The translations under genes were made by a program, and so were the position numbers. Below, in pieces: positions 10,508 through 24,655 of a stretch of 64,000 bases of DNA. The notes beneath the pieces were generated by a model, which had not been told where the DNA came from, did no database searches, and was given only the letters and a program-made list of their open reading frames with translations. Source of the DNA: Candidatus Kerfeldbacteria bacterium (GTDB lineage Bacteria; Patescibacteriota; Patescibacteriia; UBA10025; JAHIVO01); the NCBI GenBank assembly GCA_047946875.1, contig CP181398.1:207154-271153 (forward strand), read 5' to 3'. Positions within the stretch are counted from its first letter, which is position 1, and every line of letters starts with the position of its first letter.

Positions 10508-10599
10508 CTCAAATAAAATTATTTAAAAAATTAATGATTTGGTTTGTCCTGAATCTGCCTATCAACAGATAGGCGTAGTGAAGGAATCACGTCCGAAAT

Positions 10600-11568
10600 T
10601 TATATAATTTGGATTACTTTTGGCACTTGTTCTAAGAAGTGAGGGTGTAATAATATTGCAGTACCAGCGATTACTATTACAACAATTGACTGAATTATCA
10701 TATGAGGATGTTGAACTTTGATTTCTACAGCAATATTTATTAGTAGCATGATAACTAAGAACAATATTAATATTAAATAAAATTGCTGAGAATATTCAAT
10801 TAGCGTTGCTACAAATCCTTGAGATTTTTCACCTGCTAATTCTGCTGTACCTAATACATTAGCTGATAAGTCTGACTCAGGTATATTATTTTGTACTGGT
10901 AAAGTTTCTTCAGAGGCAAGCGGTTTTTCTTCTACTAGTGGTGGCTCTTGGTTTGTATTAGTAGGAGTTGTAGAAAGTGGAGTAGTAACTACTTCAACTT
11001 CAGTTTCACTAGATTGTTCAGGAGGAGCGACTACCACAATTGGTAATTCTATTGACCCACCGTCAATCCAGCCATTATTCTCGGAAACTAGGCCAAATGA
11101 TTCTTCAAATGTTCCTGCTTCACTTGGTGCTTCTAATATAAATTCAAATCTTCCTACTTCACCTGATCTAACAACTGATTGTGTTAGGATGGCAGGTCTA
11201 TAGTATTCAACCCAAGTTTCACTTTCAAATTCACTTTCTCGAGCAGTTGGGTTTGTTACATTTAGGGCGACAAAGTAATTACCACTGTTTGTCCAAGTAG
11301 CTGTACCGGTATTTTTGAAATCAACCCAGAAAGATATTTCTTCTAATGTTTTAATACCTAGGTCATTAGCACTTTGGTCAGTAAGTTCTGCCTTATAGTA
11401 AACAGGTTCTGGAGTAGGGGTTGGAGGGTTCAGGGACTGGTGTAGGTGTAGGTTCTGGAGTAGGGGTTGGTGCTGGATCAGGGACTGGTGTAGGTGTAGG
11501 TTCTGGAGTAGGGGTTGGAGTTGGTTCAGGGACAACAACTGGAGCAGGAGCTTCATAAGGAGTACCAA
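10600..11568 (-). CDS. C-terminal portion of a frameshifted CAP-domain surface protein (extracytoplasmic domain plus TM anchor)
   Basis: The frame switches within the PT-linker tandem repeat at 11393-11568. The N-terminal 50 aa of this ORF are an out-of-frame translation of the PT repeat. Confidence 0.5.
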   Translation of the reverse strand: MVLLMKLLLQLLSLNQLQPLLQNLHLHQSLIQHQPLLQNLHLHQSLNPPTPTPEPVYYKAELTDQSANDLGIKTLEEISFWVDFKNTGTATWTNSGNYFVALNVTNPTARESEFESETWVEYYRPAILTQSVVRSGEVGRFEFILEAPSEAGTFEESFGLVSENNGWIDGGSIELPIVVVAPPEQSSETEVEVVTTPLSTTPTNTNQEPPLVEEKPLASEETLPVQNNIPESDLSANVLGTAELAGEKSQGFVATLIEYSQQFYLILILFLVIMLLINIAVEIKVQHPHMIIQSIVVIVIAGTAILLHPHFLEQVPKVIQII

Positions 11569-12226
11569 AATGCTCTACTAGGATCATTGTTTCATGACCT
11601 TCTAATACACCTTCAATGACAGCTATTCCCATCTGAGTATATTTAGTATTCATTATATTTTTTTCATGGGTTGGACTATTCATAAAGGCGACATGAACAG
11701 AGGAAGCGCTGGAAAAATCCATTGCTAAATTTTCACCTGCAGCTGTGTAAGCATAGCCAGCTTCTTTAATAAAATACCACGGCTTTGTTCCGTCAGGAGC
11801 TGTGTGAGCAAAATAATCATTCTCAACCATATGCTGTGCTTTTAATAAAGCAGCTTGGTTTAATTGTGGACTAATAGTTAATGCAGCAACGCCAGCTTCT
11901 GCTCTAGATTGATTGGTTAGACTGAGTATTTCTGCTTCAGTGATTGTGGCGAATTGGCCAGGGGATGGGTATGATAAAAATAAAAAAGTAGTAACAAAAA
12001 CTTTTATACCAATAATGAAGTAAGTATAAATTCGTAGAGCAAGAGGTCTTAAAGCGTGAGGTTTATGACTATTACCTTTGTGAGGTATCAAAAAATGCTT
12101 AGCGTGTTTAGGAACACGTTTAGCATGATGAATCACCTTATGGCGAAGCTTCATTTTATTCTTTTGTTCTTCTTTTTTCTCTGTCATATAACTATAAGTT
12201 ATTATATCAGATACTAATTTCAACAA
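11393..12226 (-). CDS. CAP/SCP/PR-1 (YkwD-like) domain secreted protein, N-terminal portion with PT-rich linker
   Basis: N-terminal TM/signal. CAP motifs …LNQAALLKAQHMVENDYFAHT…GENLA…HVAFMNSPTHEKNIM…YTQMGIAV. Then (PEPTPTP)n. Confidence 0.65.
   Translation of the reverse strand: MLKLVSDIITYSYMTEKKEEQKNKMKLRHKVIHHAKRVPKHAKHFLIPHKGNSHKPHALRPLALRIYTYFIIGIKVFVTTFLFLSYPSPGQFATITEAEILSLTNQSRAEAGVAALTISPQLNQAALLKAQHMVENDYFAHTAPDGTKPWYFIKEAGYAYTAAGENLAMDFSSASSVHVAFMNSPTHEKNIMNTKYTQMGIAVIEGVLEGHETMILVEHFGTPYEAPAPVVVPEPTPTPTPEPTPTPVPDPAPTPTPEPTPTPVPEPSNPYSRTCLL
11400..11540. repeat. 54-bp tandem repeat (about 2.5 copies) encoding a PEPTPTP linker
   Basis: Direct repeat ggttctggagtaggggttgg…tcagggactggtgtaggtgta seen twice in a row. 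Coincides with the frame change. Confidence 0.7.
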
Positions 12227-12396
12227 TCAAGTCTACCATTCTTATTCCGTTTTGTCAAGGGGGTAGGCAGACAGGTTATTTTGGTATTTTGACTACCCGA
12301 TCGCACCTTAGAAAAGGCGCTCTCAATCAAATTTTAATGGATATTCTATTGCTTATAAGAGCATGCTTTTAGCGTGCGACCCCAAAAAACAATAAC

Positions 12397-12428
12397 CAAA
12401 AACAGCCTCTTAGCAGAGGCTGTTTTTG
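12397..12428 (-). terminator. intrinsic terminator hairpin (cagcctct-tagc-agaggctg) flanked by A/T runs
   Basis: 8-bp GC-rich stem followed by a U-run on the minus-strand transcript, immediately after the 12445 stop. Confidence 0.65.
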
Positions 12429-12444
12429 TATTTAAAGTATTCTA

Positions 12445-13911
12445 TTACTTTTTAGCTACAGTTAGTTTCATTGCTACCCCGGAAAAGATTAATAATAATC
12501 CTGCTCCGATAAGATAAGCAAATGTCATAGTTGAGCCACCTGTTACTGGTAGTTCTTCACCAAGTACTACAACTGCTCTTAATTCTACATCAGCAGTATC
12601 AAATACATTAGCTACTCCTTGTGCCCATACTTCGGCAGTATTCCTATAAATACCTGGCTCATTGTCTTTCAAGATAATAACATCGTAAGTAGTAGTTACT
12701 GAGTTACCAGGAGCGATAATGCCTAGCATCCAAGTATGAGTAGGAGCTAATGTGTCTGTGAATTGCATACCAGCAGCAATATGATCTATTAATACTGTAT
12801 CAACTGCCATAGAGTCTCCATCGTTAGTTATTACGATAGTGTAGCTAATAGTATCACCTGGGTTAGCAAATTCAACGCTAGCAGTTTTATCTATAGTTAA
12901 TGAAGGTAATGCTTCTTCACCTAGGACAATAGGGATTAATACTTCTTCTGCTACTGCGGTTGTAGCATCATCTTTGACAGCGGTAAGTCCTACAGCTTCG
13001 ACAGATGCAATATTTGTATAGTCTCTTGTTACAGCATCATCTTCAATGATTACTACGTATTCAATGGTTTTTGATTTATCACGAAGAATTGTGTCTAATT
13101 TCCATTGTTTTGCAGTGGTGCCATCTAGTTGATAGATTAAGCCTTCTGGCAATATATCATCTACTTTTACATCAAAGGCTGTTTGGTCGCCAGTATTTTT
13201 AACAACGATTGTATAATTTAAAGTATCACCAGGGTTTGCTTCTGTAACATCTACACTTTTTTCAATAGTTAAGTCTGGACCATCAGGAATAGAACAAGTA
13301 TCAAGGCTAGCAAAAGAAATAGCTAACTGACCCCAGTCATCACATCCGCCCCAAATTTCATCTGTGGCACGAATTTCAATAGTAAGTACACCTTTCATAC
13401 TTTCATCAAGTGGGAACTTTGCGGTATACCATTCTTCTGTAGAGTCATTTTTATCTGTATACGAATCAATAGGCACTTTATTTATATAAACTTCAAAGCT
13501 GTCATCATTGCTTAAACCGTCAAGATGTCTAACGGTAAGTAATTTAGCACCGTTATCACCAGCGTCTAGAGTAAAGAAGGCTGATTTATCATTATTTTTA
13601 TCACATGTTTTTTCGATCACCATTCTGAAGTTTCCGTCATCACCATATCCATAACTAGAACCGCCACTATGGATTATAGGATCACTCCATCCATATCCTG
13701 ATAAAATATGCCCAATCTCACTGGTAGTATCACCGATGTTTACAGAATCGGTGTTTTGATGATAATCACCACCATTATCACAGGTTAGTGTTGATATGGA
13801 TTGTGCATTTGTTGCTTGTGGTGCCAATAAAATGGCACCAAAAAGTCCAAAAATAGCCACCATTATGACCAAGGTGGATTTCATTTTGAACCTATTCATT
13901 ACATTTTTCAT
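12445..13911 (-). CDS. secreted DUF11-repeat protein with C-terminal LPXTG cell-wall sorting signal
   Basis: Signal peptide. Three DUF11-type repeats (…TIEKSVDVTEANPGDTLNYTIVVKNTGD…). C-terminus LPVTGG, a hydrophobic stretch, then KK. Confidence 0.7.
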   Translation of the reverse strand: MKNVMNRFKMKSTLVIMVAIFGLFGAILLAPQATNAQSISTLTCDNGGDYHQNTDSVNIGDTTSEIGHILSGYGWSDPIIHSGGSSYGYGDDGNFRMVIEKTCDKNNDKSAFFTLDAGDNGAKLLTVRHLDGLSNDDSFEVYINKVPIDSYTDKNDSTEEWYTAKFPLDESMKGVLTIEIRATDEIWGGCDDWGQLAISFASLDTCSIPDGPDLTIEKSVDVTEANPGDTLNYTIVVKNTGDQTAFDVKVDDILPEGLIYQLDGTTAKQWKLDTILRDKSKTIEYVVIIEDDAVTRDYTNIASVEAVGLTAVKDDATTAVAEEVLIPIVLGEEALPSLTIDKTASVEFANPGDTISYTIVITNDGDSMAVDTVLIDHIAAGMQFTDTLAPTHTWMLGIIAPGNSVTTTYDVIILKDNEPGIYRNTAEVWAQGVANVFDTADVELRAVVVLGEELPVTGGSTMTFAYLIGAGLLLIFSGVAMKLTVAKK

Positions 13912-14064
13912 AGATTATATACTTAGTAAATTGTTAGGTTTTTTATTTTTTTTGATATATTTATGTGTGAATTATTATACCACTACTATCGAAAAGAGCC
14001 AACCTTATTTGCTGAATGCTTAATATGTGGTCGGCTTTTCTTTATAGTAGTCTAAAAGTTAATT

Positions 14065-14730
14065 TTAGCTATTATTTTTTGTCTTTGCTATGGTTAGTCT
14101 GAGCACTATAACTGTAACCGTTAGTAGTATTAAAGCTACAATAAATATCAGTAATAATTGTCCTCCTGTTACTGGTAATTCAACCCCTAAAACAATTGGT
14201 TTTTTTGTTTCTATTGGATATTTTATTTCAGTTTCATCACCAAGTATTTTAGGTAGTATATAACCAATTTGAATATTAAATATTGATGATTTTAGTTGAT
14301 AGGGGTTGCCAACGCTAGTTGGAAAATCAGCATTAATAGTTAAAGTTTTAGTTTCAGATTTTTGAATTTTAATTAAACTTATTTCACCTAAGTCTAATAG
14401 ATTTGCTAAACTCTTTGGATCTGAAGAGCCACCATAAATTATATTTCCATTTTCAAAAATTTCAAATAGTATTTGATCATCTAAATCGAAGGTTGAAGTA
14501 CCGATGAATTTAATGCCGATAGTTTTTTCTTCTGTGGAGTTATTAGTAACTGTGATGGTCTCACTGGCCGTGTCTCCTGGCACGATACCTGTTTCAAAAA
14601 ACAGTGGATCGTGAGAAAATACAACGTCGAGGTCTCCGAGCTCAGCTTTGGCAGTTTGAGGGACAAAAATAAGAATAGCAATAATTATTATGCTTATTTG
14701 AAATATTTTTTTGTATAAAGTGTTTTTCAT
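14065..14730 (-). CDS. small secreted LPXTG-anchored protein (candidate fibre anchor, TapA-analogous by position)
   Basis: Signal peptide …QTAKA-ELGD. C-terminal LPVTGG plus TM plus basic tail. Lies directly downstream of the sipW-like gene. Confidence 0.5.
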   Translation of the reverse strand: MKNTLYKKIFQISIIIIAILIFVPQTAKAELGDLDVVFSHDPLFFETGIVPGDTASETITVTNNSTEEKTIGIKFIGTSTFDLDDQILFEIFENGNIIYGGSSDPKSLANLLDLGEISLIKIQKSETKTLTINADFPTSVGNPYQLKSSIFNIQIGYILPKILGDETEIKYPIETKKPIVLGVELPVTGGQLLLIFIVALILLTVTVIVLRLTIAKTKNNS

Positions 14731-14734
14731 ATAA

Positions 14735-16012
14735 TTAATTTGCTGGACACAAGGTTACATTGGGTTCTCCAGGAGAAGGTTCACAATTTTCTACGAAGTC
14801 ACTTGGTTGGTCAGTATCATAACCAACTGGATCTCTAGAAAGTGAATTTCCTTCAGCTACTCCAGGTACTGTTGGATTCCAAAGGTAGGTATTATTTATA
14901 TAACTCATTTGATCTACGATTTCGAACGTTTTATTTTTTAAGATAATGAAGTCACCAGCATTGTCGTATATTTGATAGATTGGAGGACCGCCTTCACCAA
15001 GTTCAATAATTTGAATATTTTCTAGATTTCCAAGATTAGTGAACCCCCAGTACTGAGTCCAGGTATTTGCACTTTTTGATAATAGAGCATAGCCATTGGC
15101 GGGTACATACTTATTTGCGCGGATCAAAAATATTGCTTCGTTATCAGTTAAGGTCCAATTTTTTAGGCTGATGTTAAAATCACAATTATTATAGATTTCA
15201 ACCCACTCATCCGGATTATTATTTTGTGGACCGTTTTGGTCGGGACCGTTCATATCTTCACCATCCAAGCCGTGTTCTTCATCAACGTCATAATATACTT
15301 CATTGATTACCAGACAGTCTGTTTCATCAATCCAGGCTCCAGATATCATAGTATTGTTTTTACTATTCTCAACATCTATAAAATAAGAGTTGGTGGCGAC
15401 GGTAGAAATGCCCAGGACACATAGTATTAAAATTATTATTTTTGTAATATTGACCTGTTCGGTTTTGACTGAGGTTTTTTTCTTTTTCTTTTGGATTTTC
15501 AACCATTCTTTTTTTAGTTTCTTTGATTCTTCCCAAATAATTATCGTGGCCGGAATGACGATCAAAATTATCAATCCTGGTAATGTTTTGGCGTAGCCTA
15601 TTGGGTAGCCGATATAGGGAATATGAAATAACATTTTGCCGATCACTGCAGTTTTTAGGACCGGTGCAGTATCAATATTTTCATTAGCATCACCTTTGGT
15701 TTGGAAGGTACTTTCGGTAATACTTTCAATACGATGAGTTGTAGTTTTTTTATTATTTGCTGAATCATTGAAGGTAATAACATCGCCAGTGCTGTATGTG
15801 TCAGCAGGAAGTACGACTGCCAAGCTACCCGTCTTTATATTTGGTTCCATAGATCCTGATTGCACAGTATATAATTTATACATACCTGGGATCGGTAAGA
15901 CAGAAAGTATAATAGCGATAAAAACGATTCCAAAAATGGAAATAACAATATTACGGAATAATTTTCCGGTTTTAATTTTTTTATTTAATTTTATTAGTTT
16001 GAATGATTTCAT
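14735..16012 (-). CDS. sipW: SipW-type (archaeal/ER-type) signal peptidase I fused to a C-terminal lamin-tail domain (LTD)
   Basis: Box B VQSGSMEPNIKTGS, box D TTHRI, box E KGDAN. A second TM follows. C-terminal LTD signature …VINEV…EWVEIYN…ISLKNWTLTDN…PANGYALL. Confidence 0.7.
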   Translation of the reverse strand: MKSFKLIKLNKKIKTGKLFRNIVISIFGIVFIAIILSVLPIPGMYKLYTVQSGSMEPNIKTGSLAVVLPADTYSTGDVITFNDSANNKKTTTHRIESITESTFQTKGDANENIDTAPVLKTAVIGKMLFHIPYIGYPIGYAKTLPGLIILIVIPATIIIWEESKKLKKEWLKIQKKKKKTSVKTEQVNITKIIILILCVLGISTVATNSYFIDVENSKNNTMISGAWIDETDCLVINEVYYDVDEEHGLDGEDMNGPDQNGPQNNNPDEWVEIYNNCDFNISLKNWTLTDNEAIFLIRANKYVPANGYALLSKSANTWTQYWGFTNLGNLENIQIIELGEGGPPIYQIYDNAGDFIILKNKTFEIVDQMSYINNTYLWNPTVPGVAEGNSLSRDPVGYDTDQPSDFVENCEPSPGEPNVTLCPAN

Positions 16013-16075
16013 AAAACCTTTATTCTCCCGCCCATTTTGAAGATTTGAGCGGGAGAGAAAAGCTTCAATTACTGT

Positions 16076-17242
16076 TTATAGATCAGTGTAGGTAATAAAA
16101 TTCATTTCCATTAAATACTCAGTAGGAGTCCATGGACTAAAGCTTGTACCAGAGGTAGGTACTACCCAGATTTTTGCACCGGATGCGATATTGGCATCTG
16201 CAGCTACTGGAAGACTCATACCTAATTCAACATTACCGTTTACATTTGCATATCCACTAGCATTAGGCATAAATGGAGTACCAATTGCAAAACCATTTGT
16301 GCTTGGCCATGGATCAGCATAATAATACAGTGTGTATTCTGTAGATGGATTTAAGCCCATTACTTCTAATGTGTAGTTAAAAGTATCATTAGAAGTAATA
16401 TAGGTTAGTTCGCCATTAGCATTACCAGTTGGTACCCAAGTACCGTCGTCCAGTTCTACTTTGTTTTCTAATTGCAATACAGTTCTTTCAGATGGGTTTG
16501 GTGCTGGGCAAGTGAATTCTTCATTATTTCTTGCTTGTTCAATATAGAACCAGATGTCAGCTGTTAACTGGTCTGTTTGTGAAGCATTGGTTACAGCGGA
16601 ACCGTTACATGATAGTTCGAAACCATCCATGTCAACAAACATGTCGCCATAGCACCAGTAGATTCCCATGTAAGTTGTCTCTCCACCAGGAAGCATTCCT
16701 AAAGGATACGATCTGCCGTTTAATACATCACTAGCCGGACCATAAGTATTTGAGAATAATGGTAGTTCATCATATTCCCAGATATTATCGCCATCATCAG
16801 CCCAAGCGAAGAAACTGATTTCTTCTGCTAATTCACCATTTCCAATTCCATCAGTTGTATCAACTTTTGCTTCTGGTTCGGTCAAGCCTAAATCATCGTT
16901 AGTCATGTGATCAATCATTAGACAACCATAAGCATCGTTGCTATCAACATGCAAGCTGATTGTATTTTCGCCGAAATCACCCGGTTTTACATCAGTGAAG
17001 TTGAAGAATTTTTCATAGGTGAGATCTGTGGCGTCCCAAGTACCACATTCTGCAGATGCGTCGCCGTTGTAGGTACATTCACTATCCACGGTTAGGTCGA
17101 TGGCGCCTGAGGTAAACTGGTTACCTTCAGAAACTTCTGTGTCGCTAAAGAAAGCGCTTGTACTTGCTACAGCAAATACCGCTACTAAAGCAATAGTACC
17201 CAAGCTAATGAGTACGCGTTTGTTCAAAAAGAATTTTTTCAT
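16076..17242 (-). CDS. TasA/camelysin (peptidase M73)-like secreted protein with SipW-cognate signal peptide
   Basis: N-terminus MKKFF…ALVAVFAVASTSAFFSDTEVSEGNQFTSGAIDL matches the SipW-dependent signal class (A-F-[FN]-[SN]-D … F-x-SG-x-[LI]-DL) as in B. subtilis TasA. Confidence 0.7.
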   Translation of the reverse strand: MKKFFLNKRVLISLGTIALVAVFAVASTSAFFSDTEVSEGNQFTSGAIDLTVDSECTYNGDASAECGTWDATDLTYEKFFNFTDVKPGDFGENTISLHVDSNDAYGCLMIDHMTNDDLGLTEPEAKVDTTDGIGNGELAEEISFFAWADDGDNIWEYDELPLFSNTYGPASDVLNGRSYPLGMLPGGETTYMGIYWCYGDMFVDMDGFELSCNGSAVTNASQTDQLTADIWFYIEQARNNEEFTCPAPNPSERTVLQLENKVELDDGTWVPTGNANGELTYITSNDTFNYTLEVMGLNPSTEYTLYYYADPWPSTNGFAIGTPFMPNASGYANVNGNVELGMSLPVAADANIASGAKIWVVPTSGTSFSPWTPTEYLMEMNFITYTDL

Positions 17243-17348
17243 AATTTTTTTGATTATTAATTAATTTTTTAAATAGGTCTAACAATAAGTAGCCTACTTT
17301 TAAAACAGTTAGCCTCCCAAAAGAAGACTACTTAAACAAAAAGAACAG

Positions 17349-17373
17349 TAATTTAATAAATTACTGTTAGTTC
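17349..17373. promoter_or_regulatory. perfect palindrome aacagtaattta|taaattactgtt upstream of the tasA-like gene (candidate operator)
   Basis: 12-bp half-sites, perfectly symmetric, about 110 bp upstream of the 17242 start codon on the minus strand. Confidence 0.35.
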
Positions 17374-17600
17374 GACCTTTTTTAAATAAAACACCCTGAT
17401 TTTGACAATGATTAATTGGCCAGAGTAGTTTATTTAAAAAAAGTGAATTTAGTCTATACATTGATATAATGTTGCTTTTAAGTATTAGTAAATAGCACTT
17501 CCTCCTAAAGATGTGTTATTGCTGGTATTTTTTTATTTTTTATATTCTTTAACATTATAAGTATTAAGGTAACATCGGTCAAGTTGATAACTCTCACCCT

Positions 17601-17631
17601 AAAAAGCAGGTCCGTAAGGACCTGCTTTTTG
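17601..17631 (-). terminator. intrinsic terminator (gcaggtcc-gtaa-ggacctgc) with flanking A/T runs
   Basis: 8-bp GC stem plus T-run, immediately after the stop of the giant gene. Confidence 0.7.
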
Positions 17632-17644
17632 TTATCAAAATGTG

Positions 17645-20600
17645 TTATTCTTTTTTACTTACAGTTAACTTCAGTGTATATGCAGAGAAGAGTAAGATTA
17701 GAGCTGCTGCAAATATATATAGGAATTGCATAGCTGAACCACCAGTTGTAGGTAATTCTTCACCTAATACTATAGGGGCTCTTACTTCTACATTTGCGAA
17801 GTCTGTTACATTCCCATGATTATCGGCCCAAGCAACTGCAAGGTTTTCATAATCACCAGGTAAGATTGTACCATTGGAGATTGCTGTGTAAGTGATAATT
17901 TTTGATTCACCGTGTAAGATATCTCCTAGGTTAAATGTTTTTGTAACTGTACCGTCTATGAATGTGAAACCAGCAGGTAGTAAGTCTTGTAATTTTACAT
18001 TGATAGCTACAGCTTCAGCTTGAGCATCACCAATGTTAGTAATAACAACAGTGTAAACTACACTATCGCCAGGATTGATAAATTGTTTATCAACTGTTTT
18101 CTCTATTACTAAGACTGGGTCTGCTTCTTCAGATTTTACAGTAGGTATTCTAACTTCTACTGTGGCGATATCATCAATACTTGGATGATTATCAGACCAG
18201 GTAATAGCTAGATTATCATAGAATCCTGCATCTACTTCTGAACCTATTAATACATTATAAGTAGTAGTGATAGAATCACCAACTATCATATCGCCAAGTG
18301 ACCATTCACGAGTTGCTAGACCAGTGTCTTCATAAACGAATCCATCTGGTAAAAGGTCAGAAAGTATAGTGTTGATAGAAGTATCAGTACCGACGTTAGT
18401 AACTACTACAGTGTAGGTTACTAAGTCTCCTCTGTTAACATAAGTAGTTGGTTCTACAGTTTTAACTATTGTTAAGACAGGAGCTGACTTTACAGTTACT
18501 TTTGATTCGTCCTCTAAATATTGTGGATCTGAATTATCAGCAGCAATTTTTGCGATGTTAATAATTTCAGTTCCGTTTGCTACAGGTACATTTAATGTAG
18601 CTGTATAAGTAACGAATCCAGAAGCGTTAGGTTGTTGTGTTCCGAAATCCCAAGTAATAGTTCTAGTTGTATCATCCCATTTTGGAGGAGTGACAGTAGG
18701 AATTGAAGAAGTAATAGATGCTACGTCTAGATTTAATTCAGCAGGGATAATGTCAGTTAAGACAACGTTAGTAGCAATAGAATTTCCAGCTACACTCCAG
18801 TCAATGTGATAAGCAACTGTCTCAGTAGTTTCTAAGATACCGTCGCCACCTTGAGCTACTTCTTGATCATTATATTTATCTAGAGTTAAAGTAATCTTTT
18901 CAGCATTACCGAATTCGAAGTATTCTTCCTGGCTATTGTTATCATAACCTGACATTATGACGATTGGACCGAATACACCGCCTACAGGGGCATATTGATA
19001 CCAACCAGTTTGCATTGTTTCAGATAACCAGTAAGTGCCGGCAACTATTCCGGTGAATTCAAACATTCCGAATTCATTGGTAAGTGTTTGGGCAATGATT
19101 GTTCCAGGTTGACCAGTATTGTCTTCGTGTAGGTTAATTTCCCAACCTTGTAAACCAGTCTCTTGGCCATCCCATTGTCTGTTATTATTAATATCTTCAA
19201 ATTTGTAACCTGTAATTATTCCAAGTTGGAAATTACCGAAGTTGTTGTCTTGACTGTTAGTACCACTTACAACAGTAATTGTTGCTGGGTCAGTAGTCAT
19301 TTGTGTCCAACCTGTTTTTAAGGTTTCAGTTACATTGTAGTCACCAGCTTGTAGGCCAGTGAATGAATAGTAACCGTTTGCGTCAGTAACATCAGATGAA
19401 CCGTTATCAAGATTGATAGTCCAACCAGCTAAAGCAAGTTCTCCAGTATCCCAAGTTTTATTTCCATTTACATCTTCGAATTTATATCCAGAGATTTTAC
19501 CTTTTTTATAATTACCAAAGTCAACATCAGTGATATCTGAACCACTTGTAATTGTAATTGGTGCTGGGTTAGAGGTAGTTCTTATCCAAGCAGTGTTTGA
19601 CTCATCTTCAGTTACTGTCCAGTCACCAGCAGTTAAACCAGTGAATTCATAGGAACCGTCGGTAAGTGTTTGTGTGCTTGTTGCCCAGTTACCGGAGATG
19701 TAGATTGTCCAACCAGCAATAGCAGGTTCTCCAGCATCCCATACTCCGTCACCGTTTAGGTCATTAAATTTATGTCCTGAGATTTTTGTATCTTTGAAAT
19801 TACCGAAATCAATATCATCAACATCTTGGCCACTTACCGCAATAATATCTGCTGGATTTGTAGTTGTTTGTGTCCATCCAGTTTGTTGTACTTCACGCAC
19901 ACGGTATGTACCTGGAGCAAGATCATCAAAACTATATCTTCCAACACCGTTGGTTACAGTGATATCAAGAACATTATTTTGTGCATCACGTAATTCAATC
20001 GTCCATCCTACTAGACCAGTCTCGCCACTATCTTTTGTACCATTGCCGTTTATATCTTCAAATTTTTGTCCTGCGATATAAATATTATCAAAGTTACCGA
20101 AGTTATAACCACTAACATCAGTTCCTGAAGTAACGTCTATTGGTCCTAGAATTTGTCCCTGGCCTGGGAATGTTTGTGTCCAACCGCCCTGTTGTACTTC
20201 ATTGAGGTAGTAGGTTCCTTTTTCTAGACCAGTGAATTCATATCTACCGTTTGAGTCAGTTATATCAGTATCAAGTACCGTGGACATATCATCAGCAAGT
20301 AATTGGATAGTCCATCCTAAGAGTGTAGGTTCTCCTGTATTCCAAATTCCGTCACCATTAAGATCGTTCCATTTTTGTCCGGTGATTTCACCGAGTTTGA
20401 AATTTCCAAACCATACACTTTCTAAATCTCCATTAGTAATTGTAACTGTTTTGGTCAATGTTCCATTTCCCGGTTCTGTGTTTGTCCAACCCGTTTGTTG
20501 GGTTTCAACTACATCATATGAACCAGTTGGAAGATTTCTGATTATAAGGTATGGAGAATCTTGTGGATCTTGACCGGTTGTTCCGGATGCGACTACTGTG

Positions 20601-23600
20601 CTTCCATCTTTTACTTCAAAATACCACCCTGGCATATAAGGTTCATTGGAATCTTTGTCTCCGTCACCATTAAGGTCATTATATTTTTTAATGCGAAGAT
20701 CACCGGTATCAAGTGCATTACAAAGTGTTATTTCAGTAGTGTTGTTTTTACTTACATTAATGTTTATTGGTAGAGTAATTCCTTCAAGATTAGTACAGTT
20801 GAAATTAGCACCTGGAGTGTTTGAGTACCATCCAACAAAGTGATAGTTAGCTACATCACCGTCATTTTCTGTTACATCATATGTGCCTGTAACAACTGTT
20901 TCATTACTGCCCATATCTCGGGCTGGTGTTTCAGAATCAATACCCCAGACAAATCCTAGAGCATTGGCTTCTGTATTTCCACCATCAAAGGTGCCATCAC
21001 CGTTAGTGTCTACTTCTTTATTTACTTTAATATCACCAGTGTCTCTTGTATTACAAAGTGTTATTTCAGTAGTGTCATTTTTAGAAACATTTATATTGGC
21101 TGGTAGTGAATGATAAGTAGTTGTTTCGCAAGTAAAATCTGATCCATTAACATACCATCCAACAAAGTGATAGTTAGCTACATCACCGTCATTTTCTGTT
21201 ACATCATATGTGCCTGTAACAACTGTTTTATTGCTGCCCATTGCACGAGCTGGAGTTTCAGCATTGATTCCCCAAACAAAGCCGAGGTTATTTGCTTCTG
21301 TGTTACCGCTTTCAAATGTACCATCGCCATTGGTATCAATTTCTTTGTTTACTTTAATATCGCCAGTGTCTCTGGTGTTTGTAAATGTGCAATCTACACC
21401 AGATTTGGTTAATTGAATTGTTTTTGTTTCAACAGCTCCGTAGCTGACGCCGTCACATGTTAAATCGGTAACATGATAGTTTGTCATCATATCTTCTGAA
21501 ATTGTATATGAACCTGTTGTTAGAGTTCTTCCTTGGCCTGTTGATATATTCTGTTCACCATTTGCAATATCCCATCTCCATGTATCTACATTATATTCAT
21601 CTACTATTCCGTTACCATCAGTGTCTAAGTTTTTATGGACAATAATTTCACCAGTATCACGATTGTTTCCAAACCATACACTTTTTAAACCTCCATTAGT
21701 AATTGTAACTGTTTTGGTCAATGTTCCATTTCCCGGTTCTGTGTTTGTCCAACCTGTTTGTTGGGTTTCAACTACATCGTATGAACCAGTTGGAAGATTT
21801 CTTATGATAAGGTATGGAGAATCTTGTGGGTCTTGACCGGTTGTTCCTGATGCGACTACTGTGCTTCCATCTTTTACTTCAAAATACCAGCCAGTCATGT
21901 AGTAATCATTACCATTTATGATTCCGTCACCATTAAGATCGTTATATTTTTTGATGCGAAGATCACCAACATTTCTTGTATTAGTGAAAGTACACACAAC
22001 TCCTTGATTAGTAAGGTTTACTTGTACTGACTCATTTGCACCGTAGCTTACACCATTACAAGTAACATCAGTTACATGGTAACCGGTTTTCATATCTTCT
22101 GAAAGAGTATATGTATCAGTTGCAAGTGTTCGTGTTGAACCAGTTGCAATATTCTGTTCGCCGTTTTGGATATCCCAATTCCAGTTAGTTGCACCAAATA
22201 CATCTACTTGTCCATCGCCGTTTGTATCAACATTTTTATAAACTGTTAAATCTCCAGTATCACGAACGTTAGTAAATGTACAGATAGTCGTTCTTCCGTT
22301 AAAAACTTCTGCATTATTGATAGTAGAGCCAGTTCCGTTCCACACTTGAGGAACATCACCGATCAATACACATTCCCAACCACTTACTGTGTATCCTTGA
22401 GGGGAAGTTTCTGTAACTGTGTAAATGTCTGTAGGTATTGTACCTACGTTATATTCTCCGTTTGTTCCTGTCCATCCGTTATCATTGAATTCAGAACCAT
22501 CAACCGTTACATAAACATCTAGCGGAGCGCCTGCCTGATCAACTTTACGAATAATTAAGTCACCAGTATTACGTGTATTTGTAATTGTACATTCTGCAGT
22601 ATTACCTGTAGTTACTGTTACTGAATTGCAAGTTGAATTAGTCAATGAATATCCAGGTATAATTTCTTCTTCAACGGTATAATCGTTAGGTGTTAAATCA
22701 TTAAACATTACATAGTTTGAAGTTGTAGCAGGATAAATGTATGGATTACCTGATCCAACAATTCTAAATCCAAAGTCTTCTGGTAAGGCTGTGCCACCAT
22801 TTACAACTTTGATTACTTTTAAATTACCGTTACAATCCATTTCAACATGGGTATTAACAATATTGCTGTAAATGTCTCCAGTTTCATTACTCCAGATCCA
22901 AGCTTGGTTTGGAATATCAAAATCATCACAGTCTAGCGGCTCAGTTATTACAGCTTGAAATATTACAGCGCCGGATTCTCCAGGGCTTACTACGTGAGCA
23001 TTTGCTACAGGATTTGAGCCATTGAAGTTTCCTTCAAAAGTAATTCCTTGGCCATCAACATCACCGGATATTAATTCTGTATGAATACCGTTGTATGTTA
23101 AACGAGGGTCAAGATTATCAAACAATTGAACTCCACCGCCTGTACAAATTGCTTCGCCGGTATTTATATATTCCAATGTATATTCCAATGTATCACCAAC
23201 TGATGCAGTTGTTTTATCAACAGTTTTTGTAATAACTAAATTACATACACCAGGAACATTTCCGAAATTCACATCTGTTTCATTTTGACCAGCCAAGAGA
23301 GTTACATTGTGCACATTATTAGTTGGATATGTTTGAATCCAATTAGTTTGTTGTGTTTCTGAAACAGTGTAGTTGCCTGGATTTAAATTTACAAAAGAAT
23401 ATAAACCATTTGAATCTGTAGTTGTAGAAGCAGTAGCATCACCACCAAGATTTATTGTCCAGTTAGCTAGTCCTGGCTCAGTTGCCTGCTGCCAAATACC
23501 ATCATTATTAGAATCTTTCCATTTATATCCAGAAATATTTCCTTCTTGTCGGTCATTAGTATAAGTACAAGTAACATTTTCACCTTCTTCAAGGTTAATT

Positions 23601-24655
23601 GATACGGTTGGGATAGTAACTGTTTGATTGCCGCCATTAGAAGTAGTGACAGTACAAGCAATGTTATTTAATGCCCATCCTGCAATTACTGATTCTGTTA
23701 TTGAATAAGTTGTAAAATCAATAATATCATTATAAGTTTTGGTATTAGTTGAAGTTCCATCATCAATCAGTGAAAAAATTGCTGGGGTTAAACCACCAGT
23801 TGTAGTGTAATCGAAACTTTGTGGACCTTCAGGAATAGCATCTTTAATTATTGTAATGGAAGCTGGGTAAATTACCGCTTCGGCTGATAATGATAGATCT
23901 TGACTGCCACCAGATCCGTTAAGTTCGACCAAACTTGAGTGGTAAGGGGAACCAGGAATAGCTATGGCTGAATTTTCATCGCCCCAGTCTTCTCTAGTAG
24001 AAATGTGTCCACCCCAAGCTAGCACTGGATTAGCTACATCAGCGGTAAAAGTTACAGTGATTATTGCTGTTTTATCGCCAACAAAGCCACTACCATCTGG
24101 GTATTCATAATTTCCAACGTTGGTTATGGTTCCACCAAATAAGGTAAATACACCTGGGATTTGTGTTATGCCAGAATTTTGAGGATCATTAGGAATTGGA
24201 TATGTAGTTGGTGTTAATCCAGGAATACCAATATCAGGATCAGCAGTTAAGACAGTTTCATTATAAGTTGTTAGGTAATCTATGGCATGTTTGTCAGCTT
24301 TTGTGGTATCCCATTTAATGGTTATTGTATTATTAGTGGAATCGATTGTTAAACCGCCCATTTCCATTTTATACGGGATAGTATCACCTTCATAATATAC
24401 TGATTTACTAGCTCCAAGGTTTCCTGTTACCCATTCTTTAGCATCTGTAGCGCATCCATCTGTACTTGGGGATGGTGCTGGATCATTAGCACATTGACTT
24501 ATTTTTGCTGATTCAGCAGCTTGAGCCTCATTTGGTGCGATAAATACCCCAATCATGGATGTATTTAAGATAAGTGCTAGAGTTGCAATAATATTAAGAG
24601 TTTTATATAGAACTCTCTTCGTTTTTTGCGGATGTGGTAATAAATTGATTTTCAT
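17645..24655 (-). CDS. giant (2336 aa) LPXTG-anchored surface adhesin with DUF11 and SdrD/CnaB-type B repeats
   Basis: Signal peptide. N- and C-terminal DUF11 repeats. More than 10 SdrD B-like repeats (G(K/Q)K(F/W)xDxNGNGxxDxGE…GW(T/E)I.L…(T/D)(D/T)xxGxYxF.(L/G)..GxY.V.E). C-terminus LPTTGG, a hydrophobic stretch, then KKE. Confidence 0.8.
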   Translation of the reverse strand: MKINLLPHPQKTKRVLYKTLNIIATLALILNTSMIGVFIAPNEAQAAESAKISQCANDPAPSPSTDGCATDAKEWVTGNLGASKSVYYEGDTIPYKMEMGGLTIDSTNNTITIKWDTTKADKHAIDYLTTYNETVLTADPDIGIPGLTPTTYPIPNDPQNSGITQIPGVFTLFGGTITNVGNYEYPDGSGFVGDKTAIITVTFTADVANPVLAWGGHISTREDWGDENSAIAIPGSPYHSSLVELNGSGGSQDLSLSAEAVIYPASITIIKDAIPEGPQSFDYTTTGGLTPAIFSLIDDGTSTNTKTYNDIIDFTTYSITESVIAGWALNNIACTVTTSNGGNQTVTIPTVSINLEEGENVTCTYTNDRQEGNISGYKWKDSNNDGIWQQATEPGLANWTINLGGDATASTTTDSNGLYSFVNLNPGNYTVSETQQTNWIQTYPTNNVHNVTLLAGQNETDVNFGNVPGVCNLVITKTVDKTTASVGDTLEYTLEYINTGEAICTGGGVQLFDNLDPRLTYNGIHTELISGDVDGQGITFEGNFNGSNPVANAHVVSPGESGAVIFQAVITEPLDCDDFDIPNQAWIWSNETGDIYSNIVNTHVEMDCNGNLKVIKVVNGGTALPEDFGFRIVGSGNPYIYPATTSNYVMFNDLTPNDYTVEEEIIPGYSLTNSTCNSVTVTTGNTAECTITNTRNTGDLIIRKVDQAGAPLDVYVTVDGSEFNDNGWTGTNGEYNVGTIPTDIYTVTETSPQGYTVSGWECVLIGDVPQVWNGTGSTINNAEVFNGRTTICTFTNVRDTGDLTVYKNVDTNGDGQVDVFGATNWNWDIQNGEQNIATGSTRTLATDTYTLSEDMKTGYHVTDVTCNGVSYGANESVQVNLTNQGVVCTFTNTRNVGDLRIKKYNDLNGDGIINGNDYYMTGWYFEVKDGSTVVASGTTGQDPQDSPYLIIRNLPTGSYDVVETQQTGWTNTEPGNGTLTKTVTITNGGLKSVWFGNNRDTGEIIVHKNLDTDGNGIVDEYNVDTWRWDIANGEQNISTGQGRTLTTGSYTISEDMMTNYHVTDLTCDGVSYGAVETKTIQLTKSGVDCTFTNTRDTGDIKVNKEIDTNGDGTFESGNTEANNLGFVWGINAETPARAMGSNKTVVTGTYDVTENDGDVANYHFVGWYVNGSDFTCETTTYHSLPANINVSKNDTTEITLCNTRDTGDIKVNKEVDTNGDGTFDGGNTEANALGFVWGIDSETPARDMGSNETVVTGTYDVTENDGDVANYHFVGWYSNTPGANFNCTNLEGITLPININVSKNNTTEITLCNALDTGDLRIKKYNDLNGDGDKDSNEPYMPGWYFEVKDGSTVVASGTTGQDPQDSPYLIIRNLPTGSYDVVETQQTGWTNTEPGNGTLTKTVTITNGDLESVWFGNFKLGEITGQKWNDLNGDGIWNTGEPTLLGWTIQLLADDMSTVLDTDITDSNGRYEFTGLEKGTYYLNEVQQGGWTQTFPGQGQILGPIDVTSGTDVSGYNFGNFDNIYIAGQKFEDINGNGTKDSGETGLVGWTIELRDAQNNVLDITVTNGVGRYSFDDLAPGTYRVREVQQTGWTQTTTNPADIIAVSGQDVDDIDFGNFKDTKISGHKFNDLNGDGVWDAGEPAIAGWTIYISGNWATSTQTLTDGSYEFTGLTAGDWTVTEDESNTAWIRTTSNPAPITITSGSDITDVDFGNYKKGKISGYKFEDVNGNKTWDTGELALAGWTINLDNGSSDVTDANGYYSFTGLQAGDYNVTETLKTGWTQMTTDPATITVVSGTNSQDNNFGNFQLGIITGYKFEDINNNRQWDGQETGLQGWEINLHEDNTGQPGTIIAQTLTNEFGMFEFTGIVAGTYWLSETMQTGWYQYAPVGGVFGPIVIMSGYDNNSQEEYFEFGNAEKITLTLDKYNDQEVAQGGDGILETTETVAYHIDWSVAGNSIATNVVLTDIIPAELNLDVASITSSIPTVTPPKWDDTTRTITWDFGTQQPNASGFVTYTATLNVPVANGTEIINIAKIAADNSDPQYLEDESKVTVKSAPVLTIVKTVEPTTYVNRGDLVTYTVVVTNVGTDTSINTILSDLLPDGFVYEDTGLATREWSLGDMIVGDSITTTYNVLIGSEVDAGFYDNLAITWSDNHPSIDDIATVEVRIPTVKSEEADPVLVIEKTVDKQFINPGDSVVYTVVITNIGDAQAEAVAINVKLQDLLPAGFTFIDGTVTKTFNLGDILHGESKIITYTAISNGTILPGDYENLAVAWADNHGNVTDFANVEVRAPIVLGEELPTTGGSAMQFLYIFAAALILLFSAYTLKLTVSKKE

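What the first reader, a model, noticed from the sequence alone, without database searches (positions are those of the whole stretch)
14065..17242. tasA-like / sipW-LTD fusion / LPXTG-anchor module: candidate fibre or matrix assembly system
Three adjacent minus-strand genes recapitulate the B. subtilis tapA-sipW-tasA logic in a different order and with novel fusions. (1) A TasA/camelysin-like protein whose N-terminus carries the SipW-cognate AFFSD signal. (2) A SipW-type ER/archaeal signal peptidase (SGSMEP, THRI and GDAN boxes) extended by a second TM and a C-terminal lamin-tail domain. (3) A small secreted LPVTG protein positioned where an anchor or nucleator would sit. A palindromic candidate operator (17349-17373) lies upstream. 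The surrounding island is full of LPXTG proteins. I do not recall an LTD fused to SipW as a described architecture. This could be the apparatus that attaches this small-genome organism to a host cell or surface.
Basis: partly seen in the sequence, partly recalled or inferred. Interest (0 to 1): 0.75.

Follow-up and report, generated by a model that had tools for sequence, protein, structure and literature searches.

The report
TasA-like fibre operon with peptidase–substrate fusion
Three adjacent genes in this ultra-small (CPR) bacterium most likely build a TasA-type surface fibre, and the dedicated signal peptidase is fused in one reading frame to what looks like one of its own secreted substrates, a variant that I could not find described in the papers searched.

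Summary
All three minus-strand genes are real and lie at the stated coordinates. The organism is a Candidatus Kerfeldbacteria MAG (CPR).

- **388-aa protein:** it carries a SipW-cognate signal (TIGR04088 above cut-off). Its AF2 model matches the TasA fibre 8AUR best. Behind the TasA-like domain sits a histidine-free SOD-like domain.
- **425-aa protein:** it is a complete SipW-type peptidase (TIGR02228 above cut-off; SGSMEP, THRI and GDAN boxes; two TMs) joined to a complete SipW-type preprotein. That preprotein has a K-rich loop, a third hydrophobic segment, the motif [AS][YF]FxDxExSxxNxF, and then an LTD (PF00932 above cut-off). The motif is the same as the mature N-terminus of the TasA-like subunits, which in B. 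subtilis TasA is the donor strand.

In related loci, nearly all labelled CPR, the order TasA-like → SipW → donor-motif LTD protein → donor-less subunit recurs. SipW and the LTD protein are fused in 8 loci and separate in 24.

Best model (inferred, not shown): the LTD module is cleaved off and acts as a TapA-like nucleator or tip, the 388-aa protein forms the shaft, and the LPVTG protein terminates the fibre and anchors it to the wall.

The upstream palindrome is real (17344-17368). It behaves like a terminator-type RNA hairpin in a conserved leader, not like an operator. I rate this a new variant of a known kind.

The parts
16076..17242 (-). Gene for the 388-aa TasA-like major (shaft) subunit
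17156..17242 (-). SipW-type signal peptide of the 388-aa protein (aa 1-29)
   Evidence: TIGR04088 match at aa 16-47. The register is inferred from TasA, which is cut before A28-F29 (PMC9674648).
17114..17155 (-). Predicted donor strand AFFSDTEVSEGNQF (aa 30-43)
   Evidence: Disordered in the monomer model (pLDDT 31). It corresponds to the TasA donor strand aa 28-38. F32, D34 and E36 are invariant in 74 homologues.
16508..17113 (-). TasA-like jelly-roll core (aa 44-245)
16079..16507 (-). C-terminal Cu/Zn-SOD-like beta-barrel decorating domain (aa 246-388), non-enzymatic
14735..16012 (-). Gene for the 425-aa SipW-LTD fusion protein
15455..16012 (-). Complete SipW-type signal peptidase (aa 1-186: TM1, catalytic domain with S54/H93/D108, TM2)
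   Evidence: TIGR02228 90.3 > 51.85. NF046067 aligns aa 45-186 to profile positions 38-185 of 189. H93 and D108 are invariant and S54 is >=90% conserved in 60 homologues. Hydrophobic segments at 15-48 and 138-163.
15389..15523 (-). Internal signal peptide: K-rich n-region (aa 164-186, 11 K/R) and h-region (aa ~187-208)
   Evidence: Weak TIGR04088 hit at aa 193-219 (13.3 bits, below cut-off). An HMM built only from TasA-like N-termini hits aa 193-226 with E 2e-6.
15335..15388 (-). Donor-strand-like motif SYFIDVENSKNNTMISGA (aa 209-226)
   Evidence: Family consensus AYFxDxExSxxNxFxAA, with F211 >=90% conserved. 41 of 60 match by regex. 36 of 60 match a donor-only HMM at E<0.01, always at aa 166-271. 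The window copy itself is weak, E 0.012.
14765..15316 (-). Lamin-tail domain (aa 233-416)
   Evidence: PF00932 38.8 > 34.3. My own LTD HMM gives E 6e-62. VINEV at aa 235 and EWVEIYN at aa 269.
14065..14730 (-). Gene for the 221-aa donor-less TasA-fold protein with LPVTG anchor (proposed terminator/anchor)
14638..14730 (-). Ordinary AxA-type signal peptide (aa 1-31, ...TAKA|ELGD)
   Evidence: Read directly from the sequence. None of the 150 best family representatives has an A[FY]FxD motif in the first 60 aa.
14260..14637 (-). TasA-like core of the cap, starting directly at the first core strand (aa 32-157)
   Evidence: 'third' HMM E 3e-41. First model strand is aa 34-38, against aa 50-58 in the 388-aa model.
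14068..14178 (-). Sortase sorting signal: LPVTG, hydrophobic segment, basic tail (aa 185-221)
   Evidence: L185, P186, T188 and G189 are invariant in 9 homologues.
17243..17460 (-). Structured 5' leader of the operon
   Evidence: RNA fold z -5.08, with 0 of 200 shuffles as stable. Conserved blocks and hairpins in L004, L001 and L087. No Rfam family matches.
17344..17368 (-).
   Evidence: A hairpin plus U-run sits in the same register with a different stem sequence in 3 relatives.
17554..17582 (-). Best promoter-like site, TTGACC-17-TATAAT (11 of 12)
   Evidence: This is a consensus match only, and the number of such sites in the region is not above the shuffle expectation.
12445..13911 (-). 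Context: 488-aa DUF11 surface protein with the same extended sorting signal VLGEELPVTGG
17645..24655 (-). Context: 2336-aa SdrD_B/SpaA/DUF11 adhesin with the sorting signal VLGEELPTTGG and its own terminator at 17601-17630
   Evidence: Similar giant DUF11/SpaA proteins flank the cassette in L001, L005, L006 and L087.

Best explanation
The three genes form an operon for a SipW-dependent, TasA-type fibre that assembles by donor-strand exchange.

Shown by profile and structure comparisons:
- The 388-aa protein is a TasA-superfamily subunit with a SipW-class signal.
- The 425-aa protein is a complete SipW-type Ser/His signal peptidase fused to an LTD.
- The 221-aa protein appears to be a TasA-fold domain (medium-confidence model) with an ordinary signal peptide and an LPVTG sorting signal.

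Shown by comparative sequence analysis:
- The linker between SipW and the LTD is a complete SipW-type signal peptide (K-rich n-region plus h-region).
- It is followed by the motif that forms the mature N-terminus of the TasA-like subunits.
- In most related loci the LTD protein is a separate gene just downstream of sipW and carries this signal at its own N-terminus.

Inferred:
1. SipW, acting in trans or in cis, cuts the fusion before S209. This releases a protein made of a donor strand and an Ig-fold LTD. That is the architecture of B. subtilis TapA.
2. The donor strand of this protein complements the first 388-aa subunit and so nucleates polymerisation.
3. Each shaft subunit, once cut before A30, donates its AFFSDTE... 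strand to the next subunit.
4. The 221-aa protein can accept a strand but has none to give, so it ends the chain. Sortase, encoded outside the window, then links it to the cell wall.
5. The LTD would therefore sit at the distal end and the LPVTG protein at the base.

Fusing the nucleator to the peptidase would fix their ratio at 1:1 and start fibres beside the processing enzyme.
For: Domain identities.

Internal signal and donor motif:
- Consensus AYFxDxExSxxNxFxAA after the third hydrophobic segment in 60 fused homologues.
- 41 of 60 match by regex.
- 11 of 60 reach TIGR04088 at E<0.01.
- An HMM built only from TasA-like N-termini hits the internal segment of every fused protein except L011: window 2e-6, L004 7e-8, L006 5e-8. 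It never hits the ordinary signal peptides of the cap proteins encoded downstream of sipW.
- A donor-only HMM without the h-region hits 36 of 60 fusions, always at aa 166-271. Among 2796 ORFs it hits almost only TasA-like proteins and LTD proteins.

Unfused state: among 37 SipW genes, 8 are fused to the LTD protein and 24 have it as the next gene, mostly overlapping by 1-77 nt. 20 of 32 LTD modules carry the SipW-type signal. 27 of 37 have a TasA-like gene upstream and 27 of 37 have a donor-less subunit downstream.

Second kind of fusion: P0052, P0253 and P0256 join SipW to the LPXTG cap through an internal signal that keeps a small-x-A (AxA-type) cleavage site. That argues that internal signals in SipW fusions are cleaved.

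Donor-less cap: the mature N-terminus ELGDLDVVFS begins at the first core strand. 0 of 150 representatives carry the donor motif. The same core type occurs with a donor motif in subunits encoded upstream of sipW in L017, L033 and L035.

Precedent in the literature:
- The TasA donor strand is aa 28-38, directly after the SipW cut. The TapA N-terminus mimics it and nucleates fibres (PMC9674648).
- TapA has a complete Ig fold and an unstructured donor N-terminus, and tapA and sipW are translationally coupled (PMC10151520).
- LPXTG-bearing TasA-family paralogues have been proposed as anchors in Clostridium (PMC11580942; AbpX preprint).

Sortase genes adjoin the cassette in L002 and L006.
Against: - No complex prediction or experiment supports strand donation by the LTD module or strand acceptance by the cap.
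- The window's own internal motif is divergent: TIGR04088 gives 13.3 bits against a cut-off of 19, and the donor-only HMM gives E 0.012.
- The residue at -1 of the presumed cut (N208) is unusual for SPase I. The bona fide TasA-like subunits show the same oddity, with N, Q or R at -1.
- The 221-aa model has only medium confidence (pLDDT 62.5). Its sequence link to the TasA-like family is modest (hhalign probability 40%).
- Only 9 of the 150 best cap representatives carry LPXTG. Most carry FN3-like, RTX or LTD domains instead. The roles of base and tip may therefore differ between lineages, and the polarity I propose is specific to this clade.
- No sortase gene lies in the 64-kb window.
- The locus survey was ascertained through LTD motifs, so the SipW-LTD adjacency counts are biased upwards.
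Confidence: 0.55

Rival explanations
1. Same fibre system, but the fusion is not cleaved. The third hydrophobic segment is a permanent TM, so the donor-like motif and the LTD stay tethered to SipW in the membrane. The fusion then acts as a membrane-anchored nucleator or anchor, as TapA is proposed to act at the B. subtilis cell surface. Alternatively the LTD is an accessory domain that positions the peptidase.
For: - TapA is reported to co-localise with the membrane and is thought to anchor TasA.
- In most lineages the cap carries adhesin-like domains rather than LPXTG, which fits a proximal LTD and a distal cap.
- The -1 residue N208 is a poor SPase I site.
- The window's internal signal scores below the TIGR04088 cut-off.
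Against: - The unfused LTD proteins carry the same signal at their N-terminus like ordinary secreted preproteins.
- The h-region is about 17 residues long, which is signal-peptide length.
- SipW-cap fusions keep AxA-type cleavage sites.
- With an LPVTG-anchored cap, an uncleaved nucleator would tie both fibre ends to the cell.
Confidence: 0.25
2. A loose matrix system without ordered ends. The 388-aa protein forms TasA-like matrix fibres processed by SipW. The LTD is simply another SipW substrate or domain with an unrelated binding role. The LPVTG protein is an independent wall-anchored adhesin that happens to have a beta-sandwich fold.
For: - The window's 221-aa protein has no Pfam hit.
- The PDB sequence search finds no TasA.
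- The first hhalign run was weak, probability 1.3%.
- Neighbouring genes are generic LPXTG adhesins.
Against: - Gene order is conserved in many lineages, with a 4-nt gap here.
- The cap-type core also occurs with a donor motif in the shaft position.
- The cap family consistently lacks the donor segment.
- The donor-like motif on LTD modules extends well beyond what a cleavage site needs.
Confidence: 0.15
3. The 388-aa protein is a camelysin-type (Peptidase_M73) secreted metalloprotease rather than a fibre subunit.
For: The family name of PF12389. There is a weak PF12389 hit.
Against: - The PF12389 match covers only the signal and N-terminus and is below cut-off.
- There is no HExxH motif, and the whole protein has only 2 His.
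- The best structural match is the polymerised TasA fibre.
- The predicted donor segment is disordered in the monomer model.
Confidence: 0.03

Closest known systems
Bacillus subtilis tapA-sipW-tasA operon (TasA fibres; Boehning et al. 2022, PMC9674648; Roske et al. 2023, PMC10151520)
   Same: - A dedicated ER/archaeal-type signal peptidase is encoded with its substrates.
- The major subunit has a SipW-class signal, and its mature N-terminus is the donor strand.
- A minor substrate (TapA) consists of a SipW signal, a donor-like N-terminus and a complete Ig-type fold.
- The peptidase gene and the nucleator gene are tightly coupled.
   Different: - The gene order here is tasA-like, sipW::nucleator, cap.
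- The nucleator candidate is an LTD with no homology to TapA, and it is fused in frame to SipW.
- The shaft subunit carries an extra SOD-like domain.
- A donor-less, sortase-anchored TasA-fold subunit is present.
- The host is a CPR bacterium.
- NF046067 (the Bacillus SipW equivalog) and NF046066 (TasA) are not reached.
Clostridium perfringens sipW-bsaA-bsaB-bsaC with adjacent srtB (PMC11580942)
   Same: A TasA-family polymer is encoded with SipW. In most strains a TasA-family paralogue carries LPXTG and is proposed to anchor the polymer to peptidoglycan. That paper notes TasA-family operons with LPxTG, SpaA, signal peptidase and sortase genes.
   Different: - There is no SipW fusion and no LTD.
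- BsaA is cross-linked by intermolecular isopeptide bonds.
- The anchoring role there is speculative as well.
Archaeal TasA-superfamily fibres: ABP (AbpA/AbpB, PMC9245690), Tat-fimbriae and AbpX loci (10.64898/2026.01.04.697558)
   Same: - Donor-strand-complemented jelly-roll subunits.
- A minor protein proposed to supply the first complementing strand and to carry distal adhesin domains.
- Loci with predicted tip and anchor components.
- LPXTG anchors in bacterial abpX loci predicted by AF3 to join by donor-strand complementation.
- PMC9245690 lists Patescibacteria among the phyla with PF12389 homologues.
   Different: - ABP uses the generic signal peptidase.
- The AbpX-linked SPase has ten TMs.
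- None is reported with the peptidase fused to a substrate or with an LTD.
Chaperone-usher and sortase-assembled pili (functional analogy only)
   Same: The logic of tip first, shaft next, and a terminator/anchor last. In chaperone-usher pili the subunits are held by donor-strand exchange. In sortase pili the basal subunit is joined to the wall through LPXTG.
   Different: There is no homology. This system has no usher or chaperone, and no pilin-motif lysine or pilus-specific sortase is evident.

Membership tests
ER/archaeal (SipW-type) signal peptidase I, TIGR02228 | Profile score above the curated cut-off | tested here: met
   90.3 bits against 51.85, aa 21-162. All 60 fused homologues match.
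ER/archaeal (SipW-type) signal peptidase I, TIGR02228 | Ser/His(/Asp) catalytic residues instead of the Ser/Lys dyad. That SipW uses Ser, His and Asp is from my own knowledge of Tjalsma et al. 2000. | tested here: met
   S54 in SGSMEP, H93 in THRI and D108 in GDAN. H93 and D108 are invariant and S54 is >=90% conserved in 60 sequences.
Bacillus SipW equivalog, NF046067 | Equivalog-level score (190 bits) | tested here: not met
   104.8 bits. The alignment spans profile positions 38-185 of 189. This is the same architecture but not an ortholog-level member.
SipW-cognate signal peptide class, TIGR04088 | Profile score above cut-off at the N-terminus of the 388-aa protein | tested here: met
   22.6 bits against 19, aa 16-47.
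SipW-cognate signal peptide class, TIGR04088 | The same signal inside the 425-aa fusion (aa ~187-226) | tested here: inconclusive
   13.3 bits against 19 for the window copy. 11 of 60 homologues reach E<0.01. My own HMM from TasA-like N-termini gives E 2e-6. The donor-only HMM gives E 0.012 here and matches 36 of 60 in the family.
SipW-cognate signal peptide class, TIGR04088 | Actual cleavage by the adjacent SipW | not testable with these tools
   Needs N-terminal sequencing or MS of the mature proteins.
TasA/camelysin family, PF12389 (Peptidase_M73) | Pfam gathering score | tested here: not met
   18.5 bits against 22.5, covering only aa 7-56. Many homologues at 40-66% identity do carry precomputed PF12389 hits.
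TasA superfamily (fold level) | Jelly-roll/Ig-like core that superposes on TasA or other donor-strand fibres | tested here: met
   [not shown]
TasA superfamily (fold level) | Polymerisation by N-terminal donor-strand exchange | not testable with these tools
   Indirect evidence only: the conserved AFFSDTE segment is disordered in the monomer model. A multimer prediction or EM is needed.
Lamin-tail domain, PF00932 | Pfam gathering score | tested here: met
   38.8 bits against 34.3.
TapA (B. subtilis) | Sequence homology to TapA | tested here: not met
   The NCBIfam and Pfam scans of the 425-aa and 221-aa proteins returned no TapA-named family. I did not check that those libraries contain a TapA model. 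I claim only a functional analogy: SipW signal, donor-like N-terminus and Ig-type fold.
Sortase-anchored (LPXTG) surface proteins | C-terminal LPXTG, hydrophobic segment and positively charged tail | tested here: met
   ELPVTGG-QLLLIFIVALILLTVTVIVL-RLTIAKTK. The motif is invariant in 9 homologues. PF00746 itself was not hit.
Sortase-anchored (LPXTG) surface proteins | A sortase encoded in the genome | tested here: inconclusive
   tblastn with two cassette-linked sortases found none in the 64-kb window. The rest of the 1.31-Mb contig was not available. Sortase genes are adjacent in L002 and L006.

The most novel reading that the evidence does not exclude
CPR bacteria carry a widespread, undescribed cassette for a three-part donor-strand-exchange pilus.
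- A nucleator or tip made of a donor strand and an LTD.
- TasA-like shaft subunits with variable decorating domains.
- A donor-less terminator subunit carrying an anchor or an adhesin.

In several lineages, including this one, the dedicated signal peptidase is made as a self-processing polyprotein with its own substrate, either the LTD nucleator or the LPXTG cap. The resulting fibre would be a second candidate apparatus for host or surface attachment in these episymbionts, alongside type IV pili, which are the main candidate to my knowledge.
Probability: 0.35. Interest if true: 0.75.

Novelty: new variant of a known kind. Interest (0 to 1): 0.55.

Why it matters
How CPR/Patescibacteria attach to hosts or surfaces is largely unknown, and very few members can be cultured. 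This locus gives a concrete model that can be tested by sequence, structure and biochemistry. It names candidate initiator, shaft and terminator components for a TasA-type fibre.

It also shows an unusual arrangement, a signal peptidase translated as one polypeptide with a substrate that keeps its own signal peptide. If the fusion is cleaved, it would be an unusual enzyme-substrate polyprotein on the outer face of the membrane, and a simple way to couple fibre nucleation to processing.

The donor-less 'cap' domain has about 1200 cluster representatives and, for most members, no Pfam model. It would gain a functional hypothesis.

Tried and rejected
- **PDB sequence searches.** Profile searches against PDB sequences with the 221-aa family (A1, A5) and the TasA-like family (A2) found no TasA, only chance-level hits.
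- **First profile comparison.** It reached E 2.9e-4 and probability 40% only with a diverse 74-sequence alignment.
- **Locus scan.** The search for related loci with the 60-sequence alignment failed for lack of a conserved stretch. The 15-sequence version worked, but it used LTD motifs as patterns, so it also returned many unrelated LTD giants from Chloroflexota and Thermoplasmatota that have no SipW context.
- **Sortase.** None was found in the window.
- **Operator reading of the palindrome.** Rejected, because the sequence is not conserved in L004, L001 or L087 while a hairpin plus U-run is kept in register.
- **Small leader ORF.** I considered a coding ORF in the leader (17309-17461, 50 aa), because all four window/L004 differences in the conserved block fall on third-codon positions. 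I rejected it by reading the L004 sequence printed: L004 has a stop codon and no start codon in that frame. At least one of the changes is compensatory in the long hairpin.
- **Leader scan.** A metagenome scan for the leader box found nothing.
- **Rfam.** It gave only sub-threshold hits, on the upstream gene's terminator and adjacent sequence.
- **Metalloprotease reading.** The camelysin interpretation was rejected (no HExxH).
- **SOD reading.** An enzymatic role for the C-terminal domain was rejected (0 His).
- **Literature.** Searches for SipW with lamin tail, and for TasA, SipW or camelysin with CPR terms, found no description of the fusion or the cassette. The only link was a survey note that Patescibacteria have PF12389 homologues.

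Full report
**Observation.** They are separated by 63 nt and 4 nt. All three proteins have 100%-identical database entries from a Candidatus Kerfeldbacteria MAG with a 1.31-Mb contig, so the organism is a CPR/Patescibacteria bacterium.

| Protein | Profile | Score vs cut-off | Region |
|---|---|---|---|
| 425 aa | TIGR02228 (archaeal/SipW-type SPase I) | 90.3 vs 51.85 | aa 21-162 |
| 425 aa | PF00932 (LTD) | 38.8 vs 34.3 | aa 255-372 |
| 388 aa | TIGR04088 (cognate_SipW) | 22.6 vs 19 | aa 16-47 |
| 388 aa | PF12389 (camelysin/TasA) | 18.5 vs 22.5 | aa 7-56 only |

The SGSMEP, THRI and GDAN boxes lie at aa 52, 92 and 107. The 221-aa protein ends in ELPVTGG, a hydrophobic stretch and a basic tail.

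**The 388-aa protein.** It belongs to a family of more than 1500 proteins. The members that carry source names come from CPR lineages, and some are named 'TasA family' or 'SipW-dependent-type signal peptide-containing'. Many members hit PF12389.
- An AF2 model built on 74 homologues is confident (pLDDT 87). The exception is aa 30-43 (AFFSDTEVSEGNQF), which is disordered (pLDDT 31).
- The only Foldseek PDB hit below E 1e-3 is the TasA fibre 8AUR.
- The protein has no HExxH motif, which argues against a camelysin-type protease.

**The 425-aa protein.** It has three hydrophobic segments, not two: aa 15-48, 138-163 and 184-212.
- The Bacillus SipW profile aligns through aa 186, which is profile position 185 of 189. 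The first two segments and the catalytic domain therefore make a complete SipW.
- Next comes a loop with 11 Lys/Arg in 23 residues, then the third hydrophobic segment, then SYFIDVENSKNNTMISGA, then the LTD.
- In an alignment of 60 fused homologues the consensus after the third segment is AYFxDxExSxxNxFxAA, and the Phe is at least 90% conserved. This is the motif of the mature N-terminus of the TasA-like subunits.
- An HMM built only from TasA-like N-termini hits this internal region in the window (E 2e-6) and in all but one of the other fused proteins found. It does not hit the ordinary signal peptides of the cap proteins encoded downstream of sipW.
- A 21-position HMM of the mature segment alone, without the hydrophobic region, hits 36 of the 60 fusions, always at aa 166-271. 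Among 2796 ORFs it picks out almost only TasA-like proteins and LTD proteins. The window's own copy is a weak match (E 0.012).
- TIGR04088 itself reaches E<0.01 in 11 of 60 fusions. It scores 13.3 bits, below cut-off, in the window.

**Why that motif matters.** In B. subtilis, the mature TasA N-terminus created by SipW (aa 28-38, with F29, I32 and F39) is the donor strand that completes the next subunit. TapA carries a similar N-terminus and is thought to supply the first strand (PMC9674648). TapA has a complete Ig-type fold with an unstructured donor N-terminus, and tapA and sipW are translationally coupled (PMC10151520). The C-terminal half of the 425-aa protein has the same layout: a SipW-type signal, a donor-like segment and an Ig-fold domain (the LTD).

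**The 221-aa protein.** The word-indexed search found only nine close homologues. A full profile search of 1.84 billion cluster representatives found 1199 relatives, 349 of them below E 1e-10.
- The conserved part is an N-terminal ~125-residue domain with the consensus LxVxFxxxPLFxExNxxPGD...NxYQxKxxxFD. For most members no Pfam model covers it.
- A 74-sequence profile of this family aligns with the TasA-like family at E 2.9e-4, probability 40%. The alignment covers the PGD...TI...VxN and ELxxxLxF motifs.
- Every one of the 150 best representatives starts with an ordinary signal peptide placed directly before the first core strand. None has the A[FY]FxD motif. The mature window protein (ELGDLDVVFS...) therefore starts where the core of the 388-aa subunit starts (aa ~48) and lacks the donor segment.
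- The same core type does occur with a donor motif in subunits encoded upstream of sipW in some loci (L017, L033, L035). That ties it to the fibre-subunit family.

**Conservation of the system.** I called ORFs in 86 related loci and scanned them with HMMs made from my own alignments. One order recurs: one to four TasA-like genes, then sipW, then a donor-motif LTD protein, then a donor-less subunit. Counts among 37 non-duplicate SipW genes:

| Feature | Count |
|---|---|
| SipW fused to the LTD protein | 8 |
| LTD protein as the next gene, mostly overlapping by 1-77 nt | 24 |
| LTD modules carrying the SipW-type signal | 20 of 32 |
| TasA-like gene upstream | 27 |
| Donor-less subunit downstream | 27 |

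- The sample was ascertained through LTD motifs, so the adjacency counts are biased upwards.
- Record titles name Chisholm-, Gottesman-, Curtiss-, Roizman-, Vogel- and Portnoybacteria, CPR3, 'Saccharibacteria' and the Patescibacteria group. A few TPA MAGs are labelled Gammaproteobacteria, which I could not verify.
- A second kind of fusion exists. P0052, P0253 and P0256 are SipW joined to the LPXTG cap through an internal signal peptide that keeps a small-x-A (AxA-type) site. It is hard to see why such a site would be kept unless it is cut.
- The C-terminus of the cap varies: LPXTG in this clade and a few others, otherwise FN3-like, RTX, DUF11 or LTD domains.
- Sortase genes adjoin the cassette in L002 and L006, but none lies in this window.

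**Mechanism.** The domain identities, the internal signal with its donor-like motif, the donor-less cap and the conserved gene order are shown. The rest is inferred.
- SipW cuts the fusion before about S209 and releases a TapA-like protein made of a donor strand and the LTD. This protein nucleates polymerisation of the 388-aa subunit.
- The chain grows by donor-strand exchange.
- The chain ends when a strand enters the donor-less 221-aa protein, which sortase then links to the wall. The LTD would be at the distal end.
- The main rival is that the fusion stays intact and acts as a membrane-bound nucleator or anchor. That would fit lineages whose caps carry adhesin-like domains. In this organism it would tether both fibre ends.
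The polarity and the cleavage remain hypotheses.

**Upstream region.** The perfect 12-1-12 palindrome is at 17344-17368 and is unique in the window.
- It lies inside a strongly structured leader, with z -5.08 for 17243-17460.
- Four relatives (window, L004, L001, L087) share a box AAAGGUCGRACUA. In each, a 9-11-bp hairpin follows in exactly the same register, its stem sequence differs, and a U-run follows the hairpin.
- A further hairpin about 40 nt before the start codon has two compensatory pairs among its ten consensus pairs.
- This is the signature of an RNA terminator/attenuator-like element, not of a protein operator.
- No Rfam family matches.
- The best promoter-like site is TTGACC-17-TATAAT at 17582-17554, just after the terminator of the upstream adhesin gene at 17601-17630.

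**Comparison and novelty.** The system works like tapA-sipW-tasA.
- At fold level the 388-aa protein is a member of the TasA superfamily, and at profile level the peptidase is a member of the SipW-type peptidases.
- The system does not reach the Bacillus equivalog thresholds. The LTD module is only an analogue of TapA.
- Published work already notes TasA homologues in Patescibacteria (PMC9245690).
- Published work also notes TasA-family operons with LPXTG proteins, SpaA domains, signal peptidases and sortases, with an LPXTG paralogue proposed as an anchor (PMC11580942).
- Tip and anchor components have been described in archaeal and bacterial TasA-like loci.
- I found nothing on a SipW-LTD fusion, on an internal SipW-type signal in a peptidase, or on this cassette in CPR.
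- I therefore rate it a new variant of a known kind, of moderate to good interest.

Noticed in passing
window 17243-17460 (minus strand); L004 4465-4645; L001 5450-5654; L087 2806-3000: The leader upstream of the TasA-like gene is conserved and structured. It has the box AAAGGUCGRACUA, then a hairpin with a variable stem sequence followed by a U-run (terminator/attenuator-like), then a second hairpin with compensatory changes. No Rfam family matches. It could be an undescribed cis-regulatory RNA or a small-RNA terminator.
   Followed up: partly
window 10600-12226 (minus strand): The CAP-domain surface protein gene is split between two reading frames inside its Pro/Thr-rich repeat. The intact 535-aa homologue from L003 matches 12187-11555 (frame -1, aa 1-211) and 11424-10603 (frame -2, aa 262-535). 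This is either a true frameshift or pseudogene, or an assembly error in the repeat.
   Followed up: partly
window 12445-13911, 14065-14730, 17645-24655: All three LPXTG proteins share an extended sorting signal, (I/V)VLGEELP(V/T)TGG. A VLGEE-like motif is repeated about 25 residues upstream in the 221-aa family and also occurs mid-protein in the 488-aa DUF11 protein. Its meaning is unknown.
   Followed up: no
proteins P0052, P0253, P0256 (relatives, not in the window): In these relatives SipW is fused to the donor-less LPXTG cap subunit instead of to an LTD. The junction is an internal ordinary signal peptide with a small-x-A (AxA-type) cleavage site. This is a second type of peptidase-substrate fusion.
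   Followed up: partly
[not shown]
   Followed up: partly
window 11393-12226 and 25305-26069; L002 11225-12211; L003 5063-6670: CAP (cysteine-rich secretory protein) domain proteins flank the surface-protein island. They recur near the cassette in relatives, next to the sortase in L002.
   Followed up: no
window ~10000-24000: The minus-strand surface-protein island has a higher G+C content (0.36-0.38) than most of the rest of the window (mostly 0.28-0.33), and its GC skew is reversed. This may reflect gene orientation and composition, or a separate origin.
   Followed up: no
L005 9734-10279: Downstream of an unfused 242-aa SipW lies a short ORF with a donor-like motif (NAIFVDKEKSSENFFIAS) and an acidic low-complexity tail but no LTD. 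This may be a minimal nucleator consisting of a donor strand only.
   Followed up: no
window 29715-29849 (+): Ribosomal protein L10 leader (RF00557, 52.7 bits against a gathering score of 44). This is ordinary.
   Followed up: no
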